From: an uncultured Candidatus Saccharibacteria bacterium
Lineage (GTDB): Bacteria > Patescibacteriota > Minisyncoccia > Phycocordibacterales > Zambryskibacteraceae
Direction: 5' to 3'
Length of the DNA: 55,480 bases
NCBI GenBank assembly: GCA_964603485.1
Contig: CAZRVE010000002.1
Span: 1 to 55,480 of the forward strand
In this document: positions 1 to 39,516 of the stretch, one piece after another
Layout of the letters: every line of letters begins with the position of its first letter
How positions within the stretch are numbered: the stretch's first letter is position 1
Notes under the pieces: generated by a model
What the model was told of the DNA's origin: nothing
What the model saw: the letters and a program-made list of their open reading frames with translations, nothing else
Database searches by the model: none
Program-made: the position numbers and the translations under genes

Positions 1-119
1 CGGAAATTTCCGGATCAAAGGTTGCTAGGCACCTCCCCGAAACTTATCGCAGCCACGCTACGTCCTTCATCGCTTTTCAGAGCCAAGGCATCCACCATGC
101 GCCCTTACATTCCCATTAG
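1..119 (-). rRNA. rrl: 23S rRNA, 5' terminal segment (partial; gene continues past window start)
   Basis: Reverse complement reads AAGGGCGCATGGTGGATGCCTTGGCTCTGAAAAGCGATGAAGGACGTAGCGTGGCTGCGATAAG..., the conserved 5' domain I of bacterial 23S rRNA. The 5' boundary (~115-120) is estimated by analogy to E. coli. Confidence 0.9.
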
Positions 120-5217: not shown

Positions 5218-5781
5218 ATGGAACGCTTAGAGGAAACAACCAGAAAAAATTCCCGTAAAAAGAAACTCAAAAATGCAGTGCTTTCAAGTATAAAAGTTGC
5301 AGGTCTTTTAAGCGTTGCGCTACTAGCACCAAACGCTTTACAGGTATTTGGGAAGAAGGGACTTCTTACTCAAAAAGAAGAGGATAGTGTACGGAGTGTT
5401 CGGAATCGTCTTATCAAGCAGGGCCTCATTGAATATTCTGGGAAAAACCTGGCACTTACTGCTAAAGGTGTTGCATTCATAAATAAATTAGAAGAAAGAA
5501 ATTTCCACATCACAAAGCCTAGAAAGTGGGATAAAAAATGGAGAATCATTATCTTTGACATAAAAGAGGGACGTAAAACCACTAGGGAAAAACTGCGCAG
5601 AACTTTAATTCAAATCGGATTTAAGAAACTGCAGAATAGCGTCTGGATATTCCCATACGACTGCGAGGATCTCGTAACTTTACTTAAAGCAGACTTCAAA
5701 ATCGGAAAGGAAGTCTTATATATAATCGCCGAGCACATTGAGTACGACAAGCGGCTGAAAGCTTTGTTCAGTTTAGGATAA
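5218..5781 (+). CDS. Stand-alone wHTH + Cas2-like (PaaX-C-like) domain protein
   Basis: The C-terminal WRIIIFDIKEGRKTTREKLRRTLIQIGFKKLQNSVWIFP matches the Cas2/PaaX ferredoxin-fold signature. The N-terminal half is basic and wHTH-like. No Cas1 gene or CRISPR array is present. Confidence 0.65.
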   Translation: MERLEETTRKNSRKKKLKNAVLSSIKVAGLLSVALLAPNALQVFGKKGLLTQKEEDSVRSVRNRLIKQGLIEYSGKNLALTAKGVAFINKLEERNFHITKPRKWDKKWRIIIFDIKEGRKTTREKLRRTLIQIGFKKLQNSVWIFPYDCEDLVTLLKADFKIGKEVLYIIAEHIEYDKRLKALFSLG

Positions 5782-30243: not shown

Positions 30244-30837
30244 TCAACTCTGACTTGCTGACAATGCCCTGTTTAGATCACTCACGAGAAGTGGTTTTAC
30301 CTTTATTGCAGCCTGAATCGAATCTTCCGAGAAAAGATCTCCAGAGAAAAAAGCTTCATATTCGGATCTCTCGTGTGCATAGCCGAGCTCGCACATTAGA
30401 TGAAAAATTCCCAAGCATTCAAGAGCAGACAACTCTTGAGGGTTAAAATTTCGACGATCTAAGCTCTGACGAAAACTCAGCGCCAATGGCAGTAATGCGT
30501 ATTCACGCTCTTCCCCACTCACAAGAAGTCGCAGTGTATTTAAGAAATGAAACCAAACAACCTTAGCTTCAAATTGTTCCAGAGAAAACCGAGCAGTATT
30601 TGCAATAGGCGTCCCGCCAATAATCCTCCATATATTTTTACCCCGCACTAAAGAAAGGACCGAGTGTGAAGAGTCTAGAAGCGCAGGGGCTAATTTTGAC
30701 TTCATAAGACGTACCCCTGTTGCGCTTGCATGAATCACCCCCATATCCCGAGTGAGGATAGAGAAGTTTCCATCAGCCTCTCTGTTTGAGTAGCTTTTTA
30801 GTATGAGGCTTTCCGTAGTGTATACGTGATAACTCAT
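30244..30837 (-). CDS. recO: DNA repair protein RecO (short form)
   Basis: N-terminal OB-fold pattern TESLILKSYSNREADGNFSILTRDMGVIHASATGVRLMKSKL. Confidence 0.55.
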   Translation of the reverse strand: MSYHVYTTESLILKSYSNREADGNFSILTRDMGVIHASATGVRLMKSKLAPALLDSSHSVLSLVRGKNIWRIIGGTPIANTARFSLEQFEAKVVWFHFLNTLRLLVSGEEREYALLPLALSFRQSLDRRNFNPQELSALECLGIFHLMCELGYAHERSEYEAFFSGDLFSEDSIQAAIKVKPLLVSDLNRALSASQS

Positions 30838-33800
30838 GCGCGAGAAATGGAAACCCCAAAAGAAACTTCTTCTGCACTAGAGGAATTGATGGAAATTTTA
30901 ATATTTCTTATATTACACACCTTTTTAATCTCTTCGCTAAACAGCGTTATTGTCTCCTCGCCATCAGAGGTTGTCTCAACCGAAACATCGATTACATCGC
31001 CTGGAACAAGAGAGTTCTGTTTACGCGACTCCTGAATTGCACGGATAAGCTCGCGAGAATCCCCTTCTCTACGAAGATTCTCGTCAATCTTTCCATCAAG
31101 AACAATTTCGACATCTTGATTTGAATCGAAAAATGCATCCTTTACATTAATTTCTTGAAGAAGGACCTGTACCAAATCGGGATAGTCTTTAAGCTCCTCA
31201 TTTCGAAGGGTCACCCCACGAAGCGGTTGACGGATTTTGATACCAAGAGTTGCTCGCGCCTCAAGAGAGAGAGTCACGAGACTTCGTAAGGTTTGCATTC
31301 GATCAAGTTCTTTACTCTCATCATCAGAAAGGACTCTTCCTCCTGACCAAGACTCAAGATGCACACTGTCGTAAAAAGTATTTCCTCCAATTTTCTGGTA
31401 AATATATTCTGAAAGGAATGGAGTGAACGGCGCTAAAACTTTGGAAACCCTAAGCAACACAAAGCTGAGCGTTTCTATCGCCATCTTTTTATCTTCCTCG
31501 TCGTCGCCTTTGAAACGGTCACGTGACCTCCGGACATACCACTGAGAAAGATCAGCAATAAAATCACGTATTACCCGAGCGCCCTCAAGAGGACGGTACT
31601 CATCGAGAGAATTTGTAACTTGAAGTTCAAGCTTCTCAAGAGAGATTGTAATCCAGCGATCAAGAGGATGGGTACTTTGAGGTTTCTCTTTTAAAGGAGA
31701 GCCTGTCTTATACATTTCGTAAAAAGAAACTACATTCAAGAGAAGATTGAATACTTTTTTCACCACATCATCAACCGTTCGCTCGTCAAAATTCTTAGAT
31801 TCTCCAGGCTGATTCACGCTATACATCCAGAAGCGCAATACATCCGCGCCGTACTGATCTATTTTTTCCCAAGGGTTGAGTGTATTGCCTCGAGACTTAG
31901 ACATCTTTTGTCCATCCTTATCGAGGATATGCCCTAAGCAAATAACATTTTTAAAAGCCTTCCCCTTCCCCAGAAGAGTACCTATTGCATGAAGAGTGTA
32001 AAACCAACCGCGCGTTTGATCGATGGCTTCACAAATAAAATCTGCGGGATAACCAAACTCATCAAACCATTCTTTATTCTCAAATGGATAATGATGTTGA
32101 GCATATGGCATTGCACCAGAGTCAAACCACACGTCCATTACCTCAAGAACGCGCTTCATAGGTTTTCCCTGAGAGTCAGGGAATGTGATCGTGTCAATAT
32201 GCGGACGGTGAAGATCAAGCTCGTATGAGCTACTGTGAGGAAGCTCAACAAAATTAAAACGACGCACCCCTGCAGTCCTCACAAACTCCTTCGAACCCCC
32301 ACGAAGCCTTAGCGCTTGCGCCTTTGTAAGCCCCAGCCCCGAAGACTCCAGAAGCCACAAAGGCACTTCGTGACTTATTACTAAAATAGTTTCTTTCTCG
32401 TGTTTTTTATTTATCTCATGAAGAAACTCTCCCACTCTTTGCCGGACGTCACTAAAACTTTCTCCATGAGGATACGCTTTCTCGAAACGCTCTTCATCAC
32501 TAGAAAAAAACTTCCACGTTTCTTCAGTAGATTTTCCATTTAAATCTCCAAATGACATCTCCCTAAGTCTCGCATCATAGAAAATTTGATCGTTTGGAAT
32601 TCCAAGTATAGACGCCACAATTTCTGCAGTCTCCTTTGTTCTCACAAAATCAGAAACGTATATTGCATCGATTTTTTCTGATTTTAAATTTTCTGCTGCC
32701 TTTTTTACTTCACCCTTACCCTCTTCAGTAAGCGTATGAGGATATTCAGGGTCAGAACTTAGAACATTTTTCACATTATGGATCGCTCCACCATGACGCA
32801 TAAGAAAAAACTTATTTCGACTCCCCACCCTTGCGCGCAAATCATCAACAGAGCCGATGACGACCCTTTCCTGTTTATCCTCCGACTCCCAAATAGGAAG
32901 CGGCGTTCCCCAATACCTCTCGCGAGAGATGGCCCAATCTTTAACTTCTTTAAGCCACTCCCCAAAACGTCCGTCACGAGTATGTTCTGGCTCCCAATGA
33001 ATTGTTTGGTTTTCTCTCATTAATTCATCCCGAAGAGAAGACATTCTTATGTACCAAGAATCTCTCGCATAATAGATAAGTGGAGTCTTACACCTCCAGC
33101 AGAAAGGATACGAGTGCTCGTATTTTTCTTTTTTAAGAAGCAGTCCTCGATGAGCAAGATCCTTTATCACATCAACCGCAACCTCTTCATCCTTTACAAA
33201 CCGCCTAGAGAAAATTCCAGTGTTCTCAATAAAAAGTCCCGTCTCGTCTACAAGATGAAATTTTGGAAGTCCTATTTGCGTACCAAGCTCAAAGTCATCT
33301 TGTCCATACATCACCGCAGTATGCACAATACCTGTTCCATCCTCAGTACTCACAAATGAGGCAGGATAAATCTTCCACGCTTTTTCTATGTTTTCCTTTT
33401 GATCTTGAGGAACAAGGTTTTTCAAAAAAGGATACAAGGATTCATACTCTCTGCCAACGAGCTCGCTCCCTAAAGCAGTCTTCACAACTTCTGCACCTGG
33501 ATAGAGGATCTTTGCACGATCGTTTGCCATCCATATATTTTTATCTTCAACGCGAACCAATACGTATTCAATCTTTCCCCCAACAGCAAGCGCACAGTTG
33601 CCCGGAAGGGTCCAAGGAGTGGTGGTCCATGCAGAGAAATATTCTTCCGAATTTACATCCTTAAAAAGGACATACACCGAGAGATCTTTTACATCAGCAT
33701 AGCCTTGCGCTAATTCGTGAGAAGAAAGAGCGGTTCCGCATCGTGGACACCAAGGAACCACTTTGTAATCTTTATAAAGAAGTTTCTTACTCTCAATCTG

Positions 33801-34331
33801 AGAAAAAATATTCCAGATTGACTCAATGTAATCAGGTGTATAGGTAATATAAGGATGTTTTAAATCAACCCAATAGCCAATACGTTCGGTGAAACGCTCC
33901 CATTCATCCACGTACTTCCACACACTCTTTTTGCACTCTTCATTAAACCGAGCAATACCGTAAGCTTCAATCTCCTTCTTTGAAGTAACGCCAATTTGTT
34001 TTTCAACCTCAAGCTCCACAGGAAGTCCATGTGTATCCCATCCTGCTTTACGCAAAACTCGATAGCCCTGCATAGTTTTATAGCGAGGAAATAAATCCTT
34101 AAATGCACGCGACTCAAGATGGTGAATACCAGGACGACCGTTTGCAGTTGGCGGTCCTTCATAAAAAACAAAATCGCCTCGGGGAGAGTCTTTCTTTAGG
34201 GTTTTCTCGAAAATACCCTTTTCTTTCCAATAAGCAAGAATTGCCTCTTCGGCTTCTACCACCAAATTCTTTTTAACTTCCTTGGATAATATTTCCTCCT
34301 TATTTTCCTTAAGGTCTTTATTTTGAGCCAT
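30834..34331 (-). CDS. ileS: Isoleucyl-tRNA synthetase with an inserted histidine-phosphatase domain (1165 aa)
   Basis: PPTANGRPGIHH, editing-domain TTTPWTLPGN, KMSKSRGN. Start set at MAQNKD (34331), downstream of the sigma-factor stop. Confidence 0.95.
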   Translation of the reverse strand: MAQNKDLKENKEEILSKEVKKNLVVEAEEAILAYWKEKGIFEKTLKKDSPRGDFVFYEGPPTANGRPGIHHLESRAFKDLFPRYKTMQGYRVLRKAGWDTHGLPVELEVEKQIGVTSKKEIEAYGIARFNEECKKSVWKYVDEWERFTERIGYWVDLKHPYITYTPDYIESIWNIFSQIESKKLLYKDYKVVPWCPRCGTALSSHELAQGYADVKDLSVYVLFKDVNSEEYFSAWTTTPWTLPGNCALAVGGKIEYVLVRVEDKNIWMANDRAKILYPGAEVVKTALGSELVGREYESLYPFLKNLVPQDQKENIEKAWKIYPASFVSTEDGTGIVHTAVMYGQDDFELGTQIGLPKFHLVDETGLFIENTGIFSRRFVKDEEVAVDVIKDLAHRGLLLKKEKYEHSYPFCWRCKTPLIYYARDSWYIRMSSLRDELMRENQTIHWEPEHTRDGRFGEWLKEVKDWAISRERYWGTPLPIWESEDKQERVVIGSVDDLRARVGSRNKFFLMRHGGAIHNVKNVLSSDPEYPHTLTEEGKGEVKKAAENLKSEKIDAIYVSDFVRTKETAEIVASILGIPNDQIFYDARLREMSFGDLNGKSTEETWKFFSSDEERFEKAYPHGESFSDVRQRVGEFLHEINKKHEKETILVISHEVPLWLLESSGLGLTKAQALRLRGGSKEFVRTAGVRRFNFVELPHSSSYELDLHRPHIDTITFPDSQGKPMKRVLEVMDVWFDSGAMPYAQHHYPFENKEWFDEFGYPADFICEAIDQTRGWFYTLHAIGTLLGKGKAFKNVICLGHILDKDGQKMSKSRGNTLNPWEKIDQYGADVLRFWMYSVNQPGESKNFDERTVDDVVKKVFNLLLNVVSFYEMYKTGSPLKEKPQSTHPLDRWITISLEKLELQVTNSLDEYRPLEGARVIRDFIADLSQWYVRRSRDRFKGDDEEDKKMAIETLSFVLLRVSKVLAPFTPFLSEYIYQKIGGNTFYDSVHLESWSGGRVLSDDESKELDRMQTLRSLVTLSLEARATLGIKIRQPLRGVTLRNEELKDYPDLVQVLLQEINVKDAFFDSNQDVEIVLDGKIDENLRREGDSRELIRAIQESRKQNSLVPGDVIDVSVETTSDGEETITLFSEEIKKVCNIRNIKISINSSSAEEVSFGVSISRA
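32225..32826 (-). other. In-frame histidine phosphatase (PGAM/RHG superfamily) module inside ileS
   Basis: FFLMRHGGAIHN (RHG codons 32798-32790), SDFVRTKETAEIV, RLREMSFGDLNGK, PHGESF, LVISHE (His codon 32372-32370). Flanked by the IleRS segments YWGTPLPIW...VIGSVDDL and DLHRPHID. Confidence 0.8.
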
Positions 34332-34401
34332 ATTATAACAGTATGCTAACACGTTTCGAAGAAAAGATAAAAAATACCACCGCCAGAGAAGACGGTGGTT
34401 C

Positions 34402-35094
34402 TTATGCAATATACGGGCCAATAATTGCCACAAAAGCATTCCTTGCGCGGTTGAGCCGAGACTTTACCGTACCAAGGTTTACCCCTGTGATCTGTGCGAT
34501 TTCTTCGTATGATCTGCCCTCGAGCTCTCGGAGGATAAATACCTCTCTAAAATGAGGGGTTGTCATGCGAGCAATTGCATCTTCCACCAAAACACGAAGA
34601 TCTCGCTTTTGGAGAAGCCGTTCTGGTCCCAAACGACTGTCCTCAAACTGGAGTGGCAATTCCGTGTAATCGCGCGTATTGTTTGCCTCGAGAGCCGCGA
34701 AGAAAACGAGAGGGTTACGCGATCGATTCCGCAACTCGTTTTTTGCGAGGTTTGAGGCGATCGTATAAATCCATGTCGAGAACTTCTTTGAGCGATCAAA
34801 TCGATGTAGGTTTCTCCACACTCGAATGAAAACCTCCTGCACAAGATCCTCAGATCGCTCGCGGTCACCTACTGTTCGGTAGATGAAGTTGAAGAGGCGT
34901 GTCTGGTAACGTCGAACAAGCTCCTCAAACGCTTTCTCCTCCCCTTGCAGAAACATGGAAACAAGTTCTGTTTCCTCGGCAACCTCCAGTTTTCTTGCAA
35001 GCGAAGCGGAGGGTGAAAAAACTAAAACTTCTTTCTCGACCGACAAAACTCGTCTAGTTTGACCTCTTTGAGAAGTTCTCTCTCCTGTCTTCAT
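34402..35094 (-). CDS. RNA polymerase sigma factor, ECF/sigma-24 type
   Basis: Region 2 DLVQEVFIRVWRNLHRF...STWIYTIASNLAKN; region 4 SYEEIAQITGVNLGTVKSRLNRAR. Confidence 0.85.
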   Translation of the reverse strand: MKTGERTSQRGQTRRVLSVEKEVLVFSPSASLARKLEVAEETELVSMFLQGEEKAFEELVRRYQTRLFNFIYRTVGDRERSEDLVQEVFIRVWRNLHRFDRSKKFSTWIYTIASNLAKNELRNRSRNPLVFFAALEANNTRDYTELPLQFEDSRLGPERLLQKRDLRVLVEDAIARMTTPHFREVFILRELEGRSYEEIAQITGVNLGTVKSRLNRARNAFVAIIGPYIA

Positions 35095-35190: not shown

Positions 35191-35220
35191 AAGAAGAAAC
35201 CCCCATCCGATGGATGGGGG
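35191..35220 (-). terminator. Rho-independent terminator after CDS 35250-35738
   Basis: 9-bp stem CCCCCATCC / GGATGGGGG with a T-rich tail on the minus strand. Confidence 0.7.
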
Positions 35221-35249
35221 TTGTCCCGCGCCCTGAAACCGAGAAGGTC

Positions 35250-35738
35250 TCAGAGGTTAAGGTGGAGAAGCGTATCCTGCTCCCGGGTCGACGAAGTGGC
35301 GATGAGGGGCGACGGGTTCGTGCGCGGCGTGACAGACGCGGTCATGGAACTTCGCCAGAGCGCGTCGCGTGCCGTGGGCGCCGGTTCGTTCGTCATGTTG
35401 GACTGGCTGGCCGATGGTCGAGCGGAAGCGTACGTACTCGCGTGTACGACAGCGATGTCACGAGTGACGGTATCCGGTGGCTCCGGAGCTTCGGCGATCT
35501 GGACGGCCGGAATCGGGCTCTTCTCGACGACGAGAAGTTCGATCGTGACCACGCCGATGGTGTCGAGGCCGGCGGAGGTCTGAACGACGACGGTGATGTT
35601 CTCGATCGTGATCGGTACGGCGGTGACAGCTTCGTTATAAGCGGTGTTGCCTTGGGCCTGTGCGGTGACAGGTGGCCCGACCGCTGCGATAGCAGCGACC
35701 AAGCCCAGCGCGACGAACGCTCGGGTCAGCTTGACCAT
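35250..35738 (-). CDS. Secreted hypothetical protein, strongly G+C-rich cassette (162 aa)
   Basis: AGGAGG upstream of the ATG; signal peptide MVKLTRAFVALGLVAAIAAVGPPVTAQAQG. The antisense strand is also open for >130 codons, which is a sign of high G+C. Confidence 0.65.
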   Translation of the reverse strand: MVKLTRAFVALGLVAAIAAVGPPVTAQAQGNTAYNEAVTAVPITIENITVVVQTSAGLDTIGVVTIELLVVEKSPIPAVQIAEAPEPPDTVTRDIAVVHASTYASARPSASQSNMTNEPAPTARDALWRSSMTASVTPRTNPSPLIATSSTREQDTLLHLNL

Positions 35739-35875
35739 GTCCCCTCCTGGGGCTACGGGTGGAAAGATCGACTACATTTATAACTGTACCGATTATAGTT
35801 TTTATGTCAAATAAACAAATTCCTGAGTATCAAAATAATTTACCAACGCATAACTTCATCACAAAGTCCTTCGAG

Positions 35876-37564
35876 TTACATCGCAAGAGGAGCCGGGATA
35901 CCAAGAAAAGCTAAGCCATTTTTGAGCACTTCTCCCACCGCTTCAGTAATTGCTACTTTTGTCCCTGAAGAAGCATCATTCTGGTTCACAATCTGCTCCT
36001 CTGCATAAAATCGATTGAAGAGCGCGCAGATTTCCGTGAGATACGTAACTATATAGTGAGAGGCAAGTTCTTTCCCAGAGCGTTCAACAACTTCCGGAAA
36101 ACGATAAAGCTTTTGCACTAAATCATTCACAAGAAATGACTCGACTGAGACGTGAGAGTTCACCCCCGCATCATGGGCCTTTCGTAATATTGATTGAGTA
36201 CGAGCAAATGTATATTGAAGATACGGACCAGAATCCCCTTCGAAAGAGATAGATTTATTAAAATCAAAAATAATATCTTTTCCTGGTGCCTGTTTTAGGA
36301 TCGAGTACTTTATTGCTGCAACCGCAACGTCGAGAGCGAGTTTTTCCTTATCTTCAATTCCTCGGTCACTTTCAAAAATTTTTTCCAAGGTTCTTTTCTT
36401 AGTTTCTTCAATCAACCATTGTGCGGTGATTACATCCCCTGTTCGTGAAGACATCTTGCCACTCGCAAGTCGAAGCATTCCATGAGGAACGTGCTCAGTT
36501 TTTTTCGCAAGCTCAGGAAATATTTCTCCCATCGCACAAAGAAGCACTCGGAAGTAATCGTTGATTTCATTTCCTGTAATCACAATTGAACGATCGTAGG
36601 GATAAATGTCATATTTAATCTTTGCAAGACCCAGCTCTTTAGCCTCGTAAGTCGGGAGGCCTTCCTTGTTTATAAACACTCGCGTGTGAAGAGTAGTGTC
36701 ACGCTTCTCTCCTCGGAAAATAATCGCCCCTTCGCTTTCCTCAAAAACTTCTCCGTGTTTATGCACAAGAGCTTTGCCAAATTCTCCTGAAGTAGATTCG
36801 AAGAAATAAAAATCAAATTTTGTTCCGAGCGTTTGATATATGGTCTCAAAATAGTCGAGTGCGAGCTTGCGACCCAGTTGATACACCTCGTTGACCTCCT
36901 CTTCTTCTTTGTTGTAAATAAGTTTATTTGTTTCAACTACCTTCTTTTTGAAATCTTCATCAGCGTCATATCTCTTAGATCCTTCAGCGTACGTGTGCGC
37001 AACATCTTGTACCGTATTCCATGAAATATTTTTGTCGATTTTTTGAGCCACAGCTTTTGCAACATGAAGACCCATGTCCCCTTGGTAGCATGCCCGTTTC
37101 ACCTCAGCTCCGTTACCAGAAATAATAGTTGCAATAGATTCGCCAATCGCATTACTCATCAGATGCCCAATATGAAACTCCTTAATGGGATTAGGGTCTG
37201 TATACTCAACGATTGTCTTCTGCCCTTCTAGAGAATTATTCTTCCCAAATTCCCCCGGACGAGAAAGAATTGTCTCAATACTTTTACTAAAAAAATCTTT
37301 TGTAAGAAAAAAATTAATAAAACCCGGGCCCGCAATAGTCATTGTTTGAACAGAATCCGGCTTACCCTTCTCTAGCTCAAGAAGAATCTTCTCAGATATT
37401 TCTTTGGGATTTGCACCAATCTGCTTTGCCACCACAAGAGCAACATTAGTTGAATAATCGCCGTGAAGGAGATCCGCGGGATGCTCGACGACAAAATCGA
37501 CCTCCGGCAAATCGAGGTCTTTTGTGGTCTTTTCTATAAGGGTACGGATCTCAAAAGCAATCAT
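35876..37564 (-). CDS. argS: Arginyl-tRNA synthetase
   Basis: EYTDPNPIKEFHIGHLMSN (HIGH) motif; C-terminal DALR-type domain; terminal Met. Confidence 0.95.
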   Translation of the reverse strand: MIAFEIRTLIEKTTKDLDLPEVDFVVEHPADLLHGDYSTNVALVVAKQIGANPKEISEKILLELEKGKPDSVQTMTIAGPGFINFFLTKDFFSKSIETILSRPGEFGKNNSLEGQKTIVEYTDPNPIKEFHIGHLMSNAIGESIATIISGNGAEVKRACYQGDMGLHVAKAVAQKIDKNISWNTVQDVAHTYAEGSKRYDADEDFKKKVVETNKLIYNKEEEEVNEVYQLGRKLALDYFETIYQTLGTKFDFYFFESTSGEFGKALVHKHGEVFEESEGAIIFRGEKRDTTLHTRVFINKEGLPTYEAKELGLAKIKYDIYPYDRSIVITGNEINDYFRVLLCAMGEIFPELAKKTEHVPHGMLRLASGKMSSRTGDVITAQWLIEETKKRTLEKIFESDRGIEDKEKLALDVAVAAIKYSILKQAPGKDIIFDFNKSISFEGDSGPYLQYTFARTQSILRKAHDAGVNSHVSVESFLVNDLVQKLYRFPEVVERSGKELASHYIVTYLTEICALFNRFYAEEQIVNQNDASSGTKVAITEAVGEVLKNGLAFLGIPAPLAM

Positions 37565-38586: not shown

Positions 38587-39516
38587 ATGCGAACCGCGCT
38601 TATTGCAGCAATTTCAGATAACGGAGTGATCGGAAATAATAGATCACTCCCGTGGGCTAAGATCTCCGCTGACATGAAATGGTTCAGAGAAAGAACCGGC
38701 GGACACTCAGTGATCATGGGCAGAAAAACTTGGGAATCACTTCCTAAAGAATTCCGCCCACTTCACGGCAGGCAGAATATCGTAGTCTCAACGCAAAGCT
38801 TGAAACTTCCGGGAGATGTCCTGGTTGTCTCATCGCTTGAAAATGCGCTCGAGGTTGCAAGAGATAGGCCGTTCATTATTGGCGGAGAGTCAATCTACCG
38901 CCAAGCCCTCCCCCTCGTTGACGAAATGTATCTCACAAGGGTACACCAAGACGTAGAGGGTGATGTAAGATTTCCCGACTGGAACCAAGACGAATGGAAT
39001 CTGGTCTGGAGGAAAGATGACGCGCTCGGTAGGATCACTTGGGAAGTGTACTATCGCAAAACTCCACTCTACGAGTTTTCAGCGACTCGAGATCCGAAAC
39101 AGTACCAAATCATGGAAGGCCTCCTCGCAAAGGGTCAGTGTCATTTTTGCCCGGAGGCATTTGCAGAACATCACAAAGCTCCGATACTTTGGAAAGGGAT
39201 TCACTGGTTCGTCACAGAGAATGATTTCCCTTACAAAGGAGCTCGATGTCACTTCATGATGGTTCTCCAAAATCATGTGGAAACTCTTTCGGGAGTGCCA
39301 CCTGGAGCTTGGGAGGAAATGGGCACAATTCTCAGGTGGCTCGAGCAACACTACGGGATTGAAGGTGGAGCTTTGGGTTTTCGCTTTGGCGAACCTGTAC
39401 GTTCAGGAGCAAGCATCCGACACGTGCACGCTCATGTCATTGTGCCTGAAGTTGGAGCGCCACCCGTACCTTTCTTTATTGGCTGTTACAAAGCTTCTCA
39501 AATCACCCTTCCATAG
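38587..39516 (+). CDS. folA: Dihydrofolate reductase fused to a C-terminal HIT-family (HxHxHxx) domain
   Basis: DHFR: LIAAISDNGVIGNNRSLPW, VIMGRKTWESLP, IIGGESIY. HIT: CHFCPEAF and RHVHAHVIVP (39421-39435). Confidence 0.8.
   Translation: MRTALIAAISDNGVIGNNRSLPWAKISADMKWFRERTGGHSVIMGRKTWESLPKEFRPLHGRQNIVVSTQSLKLPGDVLVVSSLENALEVARDRPFIIGGESIYRQALPLVDEMYLTRVHQDVEGDVRFPDWNQDEWNLVWRKDDALGRITWEVYYRKTPLYEFSATRDPKQYQIMEGLLAKGQCHFCPEAFAEHHKAPILWKGIHWFVTENDFPYKGARCHFMMVLQNHVETLSGVPPGAWEEMGTILRWLEQHYGIEGGALGFRFGEPVRSGASIRHVHAHVIVPEVGAPPVPFFIGCYKASQITLP

What the first reader, a model, noticed from the sequence alone, without database searches (positions are those of the whole stretch)
32225..32826. Complete histidine-phosphatase (RHG/PGAM-superfamily) domain inserted in frame inside isoleucyl-tRNA synthetase
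The ileS ORF (1165 aa from ATG 34331) is continuous. Between the conserved IleRS blocks YWGTPLPIW...VIGSVDDLRAR and ELDLHRPHID, most IleRSs have only a few tens of residues. Here that position carries about 200 aa with every catalytic hallmark of the histidine phosphatase superfamily:
- LMRHGGAIHN (R512-H513-G514)
- SDFVRTKETAEI
- RLREMSFGDLNGK
- PHGESF
- LVISHE (H654)

The motifs appear intact, which suggests a functional second active site embedded in an essential aaRS. I do not know of a described IleRS with this architecture.

Possible roles, all speculative:
- Hydrolysis of a phosphorylated nucleotide by-product or alarmone made by the synthetase (Ap4A-type).
- Repair of the tRNA 3'-phosphate end.
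- Resistance to a phosphorylated IleRS inhibitor.
- A moonlighting metabolic phosphatase in a reduced genome.
Basis: partly seen in the sequence, partly recalled or inferred. Interest (0 to 1): 0.78.

Follow-up and report, generated by a model that had tools for sequence, protein, structure and literature searches.

The report
Phosphatase domain nested inside isoleucyl-tRNA synthetase
The cell's essential isoleucine-charging enzyme carries a complete, apparently active phosphatase inside one of its surface loops; in related bacteria the same phosphatase is a separate gene just upstream, so the pairing is old, widespread and undescribed, but its chemical purpose is still unknown.

Summary
One continuous 1165-aa ORF (minus strand, 34331..30834) is a complete type-2 IleRS. 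About 200 aa (residues ~502-705) are a full His_Phos_1 domain (E 4e-34) replacing a 7-10 aa loop of subdomain CP3.

It is not a chimera. All 119 best homologues (52-66% identity; Paceibacteria/Parcubacteria, CPR) share the architecture, and R512, H513, R564, E624 and H654 are invariant in all 120 sequences (E591 in 115). AlphaFold gives a confident separate lobe closest to PhoE and iPSP-type small-molecule phosphatases, not to dPGM.

New finding: in sister lineages the same phosphatase is a free ~190-aa gene directly upstream of an insert-less ileS, inside the same argS-HP-ileS-recO block (58 of 80 loci; 21 nested; none with both). Histidine phosphatase domains also sit at two other IleRS sites, at the homologous CP3 site of ValRS, and once fused to TsaC.

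Best reading: a bifunctional enzyme whose phosphatase is a long-standing companion of class Ia synthetases. The substrate is unknown. I favour a small phosphate-bearing by-product of adenylation (PPi or a nucleotide). The main rival is an unrelated housekeeping phosphatase captured in a permissive loop. No description was found in the literature.

The parts
30834..34331 (-). ileS ORF, 1165 aa plus stop; type-2 IleRS with a nested phosphatase
   Evidence: TIGR00392 scores 852.8 bits. 119 homologues of 1117-1216 aa share the architecture.
32829..34331 (-). IleRS N-part (aa 1-501): first Rossmann half, CP core, CP1 editing domain, CP2, start of CP3
   Evidence: tRNA-synt_1 31-501. (aligns to 8C8W 11-476). 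One search gives the CP3 boundaries.
34119..34130 (-). G68-I-H-H71, non-canonical G-X-H-H form of the class I HIGH signature
   Evidence: In the family H70 and H71 are invariant and G68 and I69 are at least 90% conserved. The motif is described in PMC10485003.
33609..33629 (-). W235-TTTPWT241, Thr-rich editing-site motif of CP1
   Evidence: Invariant in the 119-sequence alignment; translation checked.
32217..32828 (-). Inserted segment (aa 502-705): HP domain plus its two short linkers, inside CP3
   Evidence: Alignment with insert-less sister IleRSs. pLDDT 88-98 in the full model.
32301..32807 (-). His_Phos_1 (PF00300) match, aa 509-677
   Evidence: E 4e-34. Domain model pLDDT 95.8. Foldseek best matches are 4IJ6, 1H2E and 4QIH at TM 0.75-0.80.
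32790..32798 (-). R512-H513-G514; H513 is the predicted phospho-accepting nucleophile
   Evidence: R512 and H513 invariant in 120/120, G514 in 116/120. Aligns to R10-H11 of PhoE.
32640..32642 (-). R564, second phosphate-binding arginine
   Evidence: 120/120.
32559..32561 (-). E591, predicted general acid
   Evidence: 115/120. Aligns with the LREIHLGDWEG Glu of PhoE.
32370..32372 (-). H654, second active-site histidine
   Evidence: 120/120.
30837..32216 (-). IleRS C-part (aa 706-1165): end of CP3 (DLHRPHID), second Rossmann half with KMSKS (31893-31907), anticodon-binding and C-terminal domains
30244..30837 (-). recO, start overlapping the ileS stop by 4 nt; downstream member of the conserved block
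   Evidence: recO lies downstream in 43 related loci.
35876..37564 (-). argS, upstream member of the conserved argS-[HP]-ileS-recO block
   Evidence: argS lies upstream in 59 of 69 related loci with a scoreable upstream ORF.

Best explanation
HP below means histidine phosphatase.

Shown:
- This is the organism's orthologous housekeeping type-2 IleRS. It is complete in its synthetic signatures (G-I-H-H, KMSKS), editing motif and anticodon-binding parts.
- Its CP3 surface loop carries a whole PhoE/iPSP-like HP domain.
- The HP domain is the internal form of a separate ~190-aa gene. In sister Paceibacteria that gene lies directly upstream of an insert-less ileS, often 1-7 nt away or overlapping by 4 nt, within the same argS-HP-ileS-recO block.
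- 79 of 80 loci sampled hold one form or the other, and none holds both.

Inferred:
- The polypeptide has two independent active sites. The IleRS body charges tRNA-Ile.
- The HP lobe hydrolyses a terminal phosphate through a phospho-H513 intermediate. R512, R564 and H654 hold the phosphate and E591 protonates the leaving group.

My commitment on function, the weakest step:
- The phosphatase is a functional companion of adenylate-forming class Ia synthetases rather than a stray passenger.
- It acts on a small soluble phosphate-bearing product or inhibitor of the activation step, with PPi or a nucleotide as leading candidates.
- Nesting secures 1:1 co-production, not substrate channelling.
For: Architecture is real and old:
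- All 119 best full-length hits carry PF00300 inside IleRS, and dozens of fragments do too.
- Synteny is the same in the window, L002 and the GTDB loci.

Active site is under selection:
- N506, R512, H513, N519, G538, S560, R564, E624 and H654 are 100% conserved and E591 is 96%, while the domain as a whole is only 40% identical pairwise.

Fold:
- Full model pLDDT 91.2, pTM 0.84. Domain model pLDDT 95.8.
- The nearest solved structures are small-molecule phosphatases: iPSP1, PhoE, HFP, GpgP.

Companion gene:
- 58 loci have a free HP directly upstream of an insert-less ileS, 44 of them with a gap of 138 nt or less. 21 loci are nested, 1 has HP only, and none has both.

Recurrent association:
- IleRS with HPs at two non-CP3 sites was seen in 6 assemblies, in a gene context that does not look CPR-like.
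- Tandem HPs occur at CP3 (P0355).
- ValRS carries 1-4 HPs at the homologous site in 11 metagenome loci.
- There is one TsaC-HP fusion.
- Nearly all copies keep R, H, R, E, H.
- Among the 150 proteins most similar to the insert, the only non-HP partners are IleRS, ValRS and TsaC, all of which run ATP -> X-AMP + PPi.

Charge: the nested HP is mildly acidic (median pI 6.1), which does not suggest an RNA-binding module.
Against: - No substrate evidence of any kind exists.
- Branch-1 HPs are mostly phosphomonoesterases. Activity on anhydrides rests on my own recollection of a few enzymes (MutT1 C-terminal domain, AppA), not on a test here.
- A freely diffusing small substrate gives no kinetic reason for tethering.
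- All synthetases release PPi and AMP, yet only IleRS and ValRS (and TsaC once) were seen with HP.
- recO is as conserved a neighbour as HP, so adjacency may be inherited synteny rather than functional coupling.
- ValRS and IleRS are paralogues and are adjacent in L092, so gene conversion could spread the insert without selection.
- The multi-HP proteins entered the hit list partly through summed domain scores.
- The TsaC fusion is a single 3.7-kb contig.
Confidence: 0.45

Rival explanations
1. Passenger domain. The HP is an ordinary housekeeping phosphatase (for example of phosphoserine, sugar phosphates or another metabolite) that happened to be encoded between argS and ileS. It was captured by a local rearrangement in a structurally permissive loop. 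Its chemistry has nothing to do with aminoacylation, and nesting is neutral or only aids co-expression.
For: - The nearest solved relatives are metabolic phosphatases.
- CP3 varies in topology among IleRSs (PMC7191050). IleRS in these lineages also hosts GNAT and IS200-like domains and NCBIfam has NF040702 ileS_w_GNAT, so permissive insertion is plausible.
- The free and nested forms are interchangeable across lineages, so covalent linkage is not required.
- recO is an equally conserved but functionally unrelated neighbour.
- The HP evolves much faster than the IleRS core.
Against: - HP insertions appear independently at three or more IleRS sites and in ValRS, in different lineages.
- Copy number rises to 4 with catalytic residues kept.
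- The free gene is almost always tightly or translationally coupled to ileS specifically.
Confidence: 0.3
2. Macromolecular substrate. The tethered HP dephosphorylates something that the synthetase holds. That could be tRNA (a 3'-terminal or other phosphate), or the synthetase itself, as a cis protein phosphatase reversing an inhibitory phosphorylation.
For: - Tethering, and tandem copies, make kinetic sense only for a bound macromolecule.
- From my own knowledge, the HP superfamily includes protein phosphatases (SixA, PGAM5, Sts-1) and fusions to RNase H; the insert hits NF005567.
- Insertion at several different surface sites fits a need for proximity without precise geometry.
Against: - The nested HP is acidic, with no RNA-binding signature.
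- tRNA end-healing has no reason to be specific to Ile and Val.
- TsaC does not carry tRNA.
- The closest folds are small-molecule enzymes with a short cap.
- From my own knowledge, no kinase is known to target bacterial IleRS or ValRS.
Confidence: 0.13
3. Missing glycolytic enzyme. The HP is the cell's divergent cofactor-dependent phosphoglycerate mutase, moonlighting from inside IleRS.
For: - The best NCBIfam hit of the insert is the short archaeal dPGM model NF038349 (86-90 bits).
- Jaffe et al. 2020 report PGM as undetected in several shallow Parcubacteria clades, possibly because it is too divergent (PMC7304191).
Against: - Scores fall far below every dPGM cut-off: 90 against 225, TIGR01258 32 against 81.7, and the canonical dPGM models match only the N-terminal half.
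- Positions that align with the ERHYG/Lys substrate-binding residues of dPGM are variable in the family. Residues 594 and 602 have entropy of about 3 bits; the mapping to dPGM residues is from my own knowledge.
- The nearest folds are phosphatases.
Confidence: 0.07
4. Non-catalytic module. The domain serves only as a structural or phosphate-binding appendage of CP3.
For: - A few ValRS copies have lost the Glu and second His equivalents (L086, L091).
- The window protein has lost the CP3 zinc knuckle that most relatives keep, so the HP might stabilise CP3.
Against: - The full catalytic set is invariant in 120 IleRS homologues and conserved in the free genes.
- That set is conserved far above the 40% domain background.
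Confidence: 0.04
5. Assembly chimera or frameshifted pseudogene.
For: Some relatives appear split (L002, L097, L098).
Against: - The window ORF is continuous and its composition is uniform.
- The architecture recurs in hundreds of independent assemblies, on contigs up to 761 kb.
- The splits are homopolymer or long-read frameshifts.
Confidence: 0.01

Closest known systems
Bacterial type-2 IleRS (Priestia megaterium IleRS2, PDB 8C8W; Thermus thermophilus IleRS, 1ILE)
   Same: The whole IleRS body matches: E 5.6e-231 by sequence and Foldseek TM 0.79-0.90 on the target. It has the type-2 C-terminal organisation and the G-X-H-H signature variant described for IleRS2.
   Different: No solved or described IleRS has ~200 aa in the CP3 loop; 8C8W has about 6 residues there. 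The window protein has also lost the CP3 Cys4 zinc knuckle.
PhoE (Bacillus stearothermophilus, 1H2E/1EBB) and iPSP1 phosphoserine phosphatase (Hydrogenobacter thermophilus, 4IJ5/4IJ6)
   Same: Short branch-1 histidine phosphatases of about 200 aa. Best sequence match E 4e-16 and best structural matches TM 0.75-0.77. The catalytic residues R, H, R, E, H are the same.
   Different: Those are free-standing metabolic enzymes. This one is nested in, or operon-coupled to, ileS. It has family-specific features (N506, an H-x-x-P-L-W segment after the second His) and an extra C-terminal strand that brings the chain back to its starting point.
NCBIfam NF040702, IleRS containing an N-acetyltransferase domain
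   Same: A precedent for an unrelated enzyme domain carried inside an IleRS. P0319 combines HP and GNAT in one IleRS.
   Different: The guest domain is different (GNAT). The window protein scores 290 against a cut-off of 1999, so it is not a member.
HP domains fused to nucleic-acid or nucleotide enzymes (bifunctional RNase H/acid phosphatase NF005567; mycobacterial MutT1 Nudix-HP NF052459)
   Same: A CobC/PhoE-like HP is joined to an enzyme of nucleic-acid or nucleotide metabolism. The insert hits NF005567 at 79-82 bits.
   Different: Those are end-to-end fusions. Here the domain is nested within a loop, and the scores are far below the family cut-offs.
CP1 editing domain of class Ia synthetases
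   Same: A catalytic domain inserted into the Rossmann fold through a connective-peptide loop, giving a second hydrolytic site on the synthetase.
   Different: CP1 is universal in IleRS, ValRS and LeuRS and acts on mischarged tRNA. The HP is lineage-specific, can be replaced by a free gene, and performs phosphoryl rather than ester hydrolysis.

Membership tests
Histidine phosphatase superfamily, branch 1 (PF00300) | Profile match above the curated cut-off | tested here: met
   118-123 bits against a cut-off of 21.7.
Histidine phosphatase superfamily, branch 1 (PF00300) | RHG motif with nucleophilic His, second Arg, acid Glu and second His | tested here: met
   R512, H513, R564, E591 and H654 align to the PhoE catalytic residues. 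They are invariant or 96% conserved in 120 homologues.
Histidine phosphatase superfamily, branch 1 (PF00300) | Alpha/beta fold of the superfamily | tested here: met
   Domain model pLDDT 95.8. Foldseek TM 0.75-0.80 to 4IJ6, 1H2E and 4QIH.
Histidine phosphatase superfamily, branch 1 (PF00300) | Phosphatase activity through a phospho-histidine intermediate | not testable with these tools
   Needs an enzyme assay with an H513A control.
Isoleucine--tRNA ligase, type 2 | Equivalog model above cut-off | tested here: met
   TIGR00392 scores 852.8 against 621.4.
Isoleucine--tRNA ligase, type 2 | Class I signatures (HIGH-type and KMSKS), CP1 editing motif, anticodon-binding domain | tested here: met
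   G-I-H-H at 68-71 (the IleRS2 variant), KMSKS at 809-813, WTTTPWT at 235-241, and Anticodon_1.
Isoleucine--tRNA ligase, type 2 | Sole, orthologous housekeeping copy | tested here: inconclusive
   The argS-ileS-recO synteny is the same as for insert-less orthologues. Whole genomes could not be inspected.
Cofactor-dependent phosphoglycerate mutase (dPGM) | Equivalog or subfamily models above cut-off, full-length match | tested here: not met
   NF038349 scores 90 against 225, TIGR01258 32 against 81.7, and NF010713 29 against 305 with only an N-terminal match.
Alpha-ribazole phosphatase CobC / phosphoserine phosphatase PspA / SixA | Equivalog models above cut-off | tested here: not met
   TIGR03162 scores 80 against 162.9, NF045917 78 against 350, and TIGR00249 43 against 74.5.
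IleRS with GNAT domain (NF040702) | Model above cut-off; GNAT domain present | tested here: not met
   290 against 1999, and no acetyltransferase Pfam hit in the window protein.
Intein | Cys/Ser at insert residue 1, His-Asn followed by Cys/Ser/Thr at the C-junction, HINT fold | tested here: not met
   There is no conserved nucleophile at the N-junction. The family has P-H-N at 698-700, but the next residue is mostly Glu. The fold is HP, not HINT.

The most novel reading that the evidence does not exclude
The histidine phosphatase is a mechanistically required accessory activity of IleRS and ValRS in several bacterial lineages. It would be a third catalytic site beside synthesis and editing, clearing a phosphate-bearing product or inhibitor of amino-acid activation, or dephosphorylating the synthetase or its tRNA. 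It has been recruited repeatedly as a free partner, as a CP3 insert and at other loops. That would define a new class of synthetase-associated enzyme.
Probability: 0.35. Interest if true: 0.85.

Novelty: new variant of a known kind. Interest (0 to 1): 0.68.

Why it matters
- Aminoacyl-tRNA synthetases are among the best-studied enzymes. Apart from editing domains, an extra catalytic domain nested inside the catalytic core of a bacterial housekeeping synthetase is unusual.
- Nine literature searches found no description of it, including recent papers on IleRS domain evolution.
- The two interchangeable gene layouts give a clean natural experiment in how a neighbouring gene becomes an internal domain. 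One is a free gene translationally coupled to ileS. The other is the same domain inside CP3.
- These layouts also give a ready experimental system: free HP plus insert-less IleRS against the nested enzyme.
- If the phosphatase is functionally tied to aminoacylation, it reveals an unknown requirement of Ile/Val charging in ultra-small bacteria.
- If it is not, it is still a striking case of domain capture in an essential gene. It also warns that metabolic reconstructions of CPR genomes will miss, or mis-assign, a conserved phosphatase hidden inside 'ileS'.

Tried and rejected
- Chimera or frameshift: rejected.
- Natural split IleRS as an evolutionary intermediate. L097 looked like IleRS-N+HP | IleRS-C with a 4-nt overlap. 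The break lies inside an HP helix at an A5 run, and one extra A restores the consensus, so it is an indel artefact or pseudogene. L002 and L098 are long-read contigs with frameshifts.
- Intein: rejected.
- dPGM: rejected on model scores and variable substrate-binding positions.
- A third conserved operon partner. The genes between HP and ileS in the 14 loci with larger gaps are heterogeneous: a threonine-synthase-like PLP enzyme, Nudix, Fic and others, recognised by eye from sequence motifs.
- A TsaC gene near HP in the 80 loci or the window: none found.
- A second HP elsewhere in the window: none.
- The search for related loci with the 34-sequence alignment A2 failed because no stretch was conserved enough.
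- The metagenome scan with a P0278 fragment chose non-conserved peptides and found nothing. A hand-built degenerate DNA pattern replaced it.
- Geometry of H513 relative to the synthetic and editing sites could not be measured, because model coordinates are not exposed.
- Presence or absence of ppa, gpmI or serB in these genomes could not be tested, because only loci of 20 kb or less are retrievable.
- The NJ tree of the HP domain alone is unresolved.
- Pfam on other window genes gave no clue to the HP substrate.
Full report
HP below means histidine phosphatase.

**1. What is in the window**

- The minus-strand ORF 30834..34439 is uninterrupted. Starting at ATG 34331 it encodes 1165 aa.
- Pfam gives the nested order tRNA-synt_1 (31-501), His_Phos_1 (509-677, E 4e-34, 118 bits against a cut-off of 21.7), tRNA-synt_1 / tRNA-synt_1g, Anticodon_1, DUF5915.
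- NCBIfam calls it IleRS (TIGR00392, 852.8 against 621.4), of the MupA/MupB-like type 2.
The DNA coordinates are off by one base at each end.
- GC content across the insert matches its flanks.
- Against the closest solved IleRS (P. megaterium IleRS2, 8C8W), residue 500 aligns to 476 and residue 702 to 483, so about 200 residues replace a loop of about six.
- Alignment with insert-less relatives places the insert at residues ~502-705, between the 'IGSxxEL' helix and 'DLHRPxID'.
- By the domain boundaries published for Candida albicans IleRS, this is subdomain CP3. Its topology differs among IleRSs, and in T. thermophilus it holds a zinc motif (PMC7191050).

**2. It is real, old and under selection**

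- A full-length search returned 119 homologues (52-66% identity, 1117-1216 aa). Every one carries PF00300 inside IleRS. They lie on contigs up to 761 kb.
- Named members are Zambryskibacteria, Campbellbacteria, Taylorbacteria, Paceibacterota and Pacebacteria.
- A search with the junction region found dozens more fragments from Uhrbacteria, Niyogibacteria, Nealsonbacteria, Sungbacteria and Colwellbacteria.
- In this family N506, R512, H513, N519, G538, S560, R564, E624 and H654 are invariant, and E591 is conserved in 115 of 120.
- The domain as a whole is only 40% identical pairwise, against 71-72% for the Rossmann halves. The active site is therefore specifically conserved.
- The IleRS itself is complete:
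  - G-I-H-H at 68-71. This is the non-canonical G-X-H-H signature that Brkic et al. linked to mupirocin hyper-resistance in IleRS2 (PMC10485003).
  - KMSKS at 809-813.
  - The CP1 editing motif WTTTPWT.

**3. Structure**

- AlphaFold2 with the family alignment gives mean pLDDT 91.2 and pTM 0.84. The insert is a compact alpha/beta lobe with pLDDT 88-98.
- The IleRS body matches type-2 IleRS structures, none of which has the insert.
- The insert modelled alone reaches pLDDT 95.8.
- Its best structural neighbours are short small-molecule phosphatases at TM 0.75-0.80: iPSP1 phosphoserine phosphatase, PhoE, a riboflavin-pathway HFP and mycobacterial GpgP. By sequence the closest is PhoE (E 4e-16).
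- All function-specific NCBIfam models (dPGM, CobC, PspA, SixA) fall well below their cut-offs.

**4. The phosphatase also exists as the gene next door**

- An exhaustive phmmer search with the insert alone found nested IleRSs and also about 50 free proteins of 185-215 aa. These are 40-52% identical to the nested domain.
- I scanned one genome per GTDB species with an alignment of 11 of these free HPs. The scan found 348 relatives, and 80 loci were kept. Most are labelled Staskawiczbacteria, Nealsonbacteria, Portnoybacteria, Paceibacter or Parcubacteria. Many carry a generic 'uncultured Saccharibacteria' label.
- Six-frame ORFs scored with my own profiles classify the 80 loci as follows:
  - 58 loci have a free HP ORF directly upstream, on the same strand, of an insert-less ileS.
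  - 21 loci are nested.
  - 1 locus has HP only.
  - No locus has both forms.
- Of the 58 adjacent loci, 44 have a gap of 138 nt or less, many of 1-7 nt or a 4-nt overlap.
- The 14 larger gaps hold heterogeneous accessory genes.
- argS lies upstream in 59 of 69 loci with a scoreable upstream ORF, and recO lies downstream in 43. The blocks are therefore argS-HP-ileS-recO or argS-ileS(HP)-recO. The latter is the arrangement in the window and in L002. L001 shows argS-HP-ileS as well.

**5. Evolutionary pattern**

- I built a bootstrapped NJ tree of 91 IleRS sequences with the HP removed. It places nested enzymes in three well-supported clades, each with adjacent-type sisters:
  - The window's family (23 sequences, bootstrap 100) is sister to L037 and L054 (bootstrap 100).
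  - A GTDB clade of 19 (bootstrap 98) lies inside an otherwise adjacent-type group (bootstrap 99).
  - L080 stands alone inside an adjacent-type clade (bootstrap 100).
- Even so, all nested forms use the same site. They also share a linker motif, LP[HY]N before ELD[LF]HRP, that neither free HPs nor insert-less IleRSs have.
- The simplest reading is one nesting event, an ancestor with both copies, and differential loss. Recombination of a CP3-HP cassette is an alternative.
- Either way, lineages keep exactly one copy in one of two forms. This argues that the phosphatase is needed and that covalent linkage is not mechanistically essential.

**6. The association recurs elsewhere**

- P0279 is a complete 1419-aa IleRS with an empty CP3 and two HPs at other loops, near window residues 748 and 880.
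  - It is found in six assemblies, on contigs up to 1.06 Mb.
  - Its gene context does not look CPR-like: POR, purA, DAHP synthase and an SLH protein.
- P0355 and P0385 have tandem HPs at CP3.
- P0282 has HPs at CP3 and at site 748.
- P0319 adds a GNAT domain and an IS200-like domain.
- P0278 is a ValRS with four HPs.
- A degenerate DNA pattern (WGHRIP, a gap, then RHG[EQ]xxxN) recovered 13 metagenome loci. Eleven are ValRS with one or two HPs right after WGHRIP, the CP3-homologous site. In L092 the neighbouring IleRS also carries an HP.
- Nearly all these copies keep R, H, R, E, H. L086 and L091 have lost the Glu and the second His, and one copy in L092 has Glu replaced by Ala.
- P0310 is a bona fide TsaC (TIGR00057 above its cut-off) fused to an HP of this clade, but it is a single observation.

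**7. What it does**

Shown:
- A complete IleRS and a complete, conserved HP active site sit on one chain.
- The nested domain is equivalent to a free neighbouring gene.

Inferred:
- Phosphoryl transfer to H513, with R512, R564 and H654 binding the phosphate and E591 acting as the acid, as in PhoE and dPGM chemistry.

Unknown:
- The substrate.

Ranking of the alternatives:
- (a) 0.45: a functional companion of adenylate-forming class Ia synthetases, acting on a small phosphate-bearing by-product or inhibitor.
  - PPi or a nucleotide are the leading candidates, because the only partners seen (IleRS, ValRS, TsaC) all convert ATP to an acyl-AMP plus PPi.
  - The domain is acidic (pI 6.1).
  - Its nearest folds are small-molecule enzymes.
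- (b) 0.30: an unrelated housekeeping phosphatase captured in a permissive loop.
  - recO is an equally conserved neighbour.
  - GNAT and transposase-like guest domains show that the host tolerates insertions.
  - The free and nested forms are interchangeable.
- (c) 0.13: a macromolecular substrate, either tRNA or the synthetase itself.
- (d) 0.07: the 'missing' PGM of some Parcubacteria (Jaffe 2020). The dPGM models and variable substrate-binding positions argue against this.
- (e) 0.04: a non-catalytic module.
- (f) 0.01: an artefact.

**8. Novelty**

- Nine full-text searches found no description of a histidine phosphatase in or beside IleRS or ValRS.
- The 2023 and 2026 IleRS evolution papers do not mention it.
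- The sequences are public but annotated only as IleRS or 'class I tRNA ligase family protein'.
- I classify it as a new variant of known kinds: a new, widespread domain architecture with a clear evolutionary origin and an unresolved function.

Noticed in passing
window 35196-35740: A ~540-bp island of 58-65% GC in a ~42% GC genome, between the ECF sigma gene and argS. On the minus strand it encodes a 162-aa protein with a signal-peptide-like N-terminus (35250-35738). A hairpin terminator follows at about 35196-35222. There is no Pfam or Rfam match. It looks like a recent horizontal acquisition from a high-GC organism.
   Followed up: partly
window 34119-34130: The IleRS has G-I-H-H in place of the class I H-x-G-H signature, and this holds across the whole nested family. 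It is the G/AXHH variant that Brkic et al. 2023 tied to mupirocin hyper-resistance in IleRS2.
   Followed up: partly
window ~32883-32894 and ~32169-32177 (IleRS residues 483/486 and 719/721): Most relatives, nested and insert-less, keep a CxxC...CxC zinc knuckle flanking the CP3 insertion point; about one third of the closest family do. The window protein has S, K, D and Q at these positions, so it has lost the zinc site.
   Followed up: partly
loci L083, L085-L093, L095 (metagenome contigs); protein P0278: Valyl-tRNA synthetases with one to four histidine phosphatase domains nested right after WGHRIP, the site homologous to IleRS CP3. P0278 has one more in the CP2 region. The taxa are unknown and GC ranges from 35 to 53%.
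   Followed up: partly
proteins P0319, P0310, P0279 (L096): P0319 is an IleRS carrying an IS200-like Y1 transposase domain, an HP and a GNAT acetyltransferase. P0310 is a TsaC (t6A synthesis) fused to an HP. P0279 is an IleRS with two HPs at non-CP3 loops, in a genome that does not look CPR-like.
   Followed up: partly
window 38587-39516: The DHFR gene encodes 309 aa, but the DHFR_1 match covers only residues 4-144. The C-terminal ~165 aa have no Pfam match.
   Followed up: no
window 5218-5781; L033 1324-1869; L062 upstream ORF: A small protein with a PaaX-central/Cas2-like domain is in the window (Pfam). By eye, similar proteins recur near the argS-ileS block in related loci, one of them lying between HP and ileS in L033.
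   Followed up: no
L097 4990-5004: An apparent split of a nested ileS into two overlapping genes is caused by a run of five A inside the HP coding region. One more A restores the family consensus. It is an assembly indel or a pseudogene.
   Followed up: yes
L005 6922-7944, L027 6575-7597: In two loci a threonine-synthase-like PLP enzyme (NPTGTHKDR motif, recognised by eye) sits between the free HP and ileS. This could hint at phospho-amino-acid chemistry, or it could be coincidence.
   Followed up: no
window 1-118: The 5' end of a 23S rRNA gene (minus strand) is cut by the window edge. Four tRNA genes (His, Leu-GAG, Val-TAC, Leu-CAG) lie at 51.9-54.8 kb.
   Followed up: no
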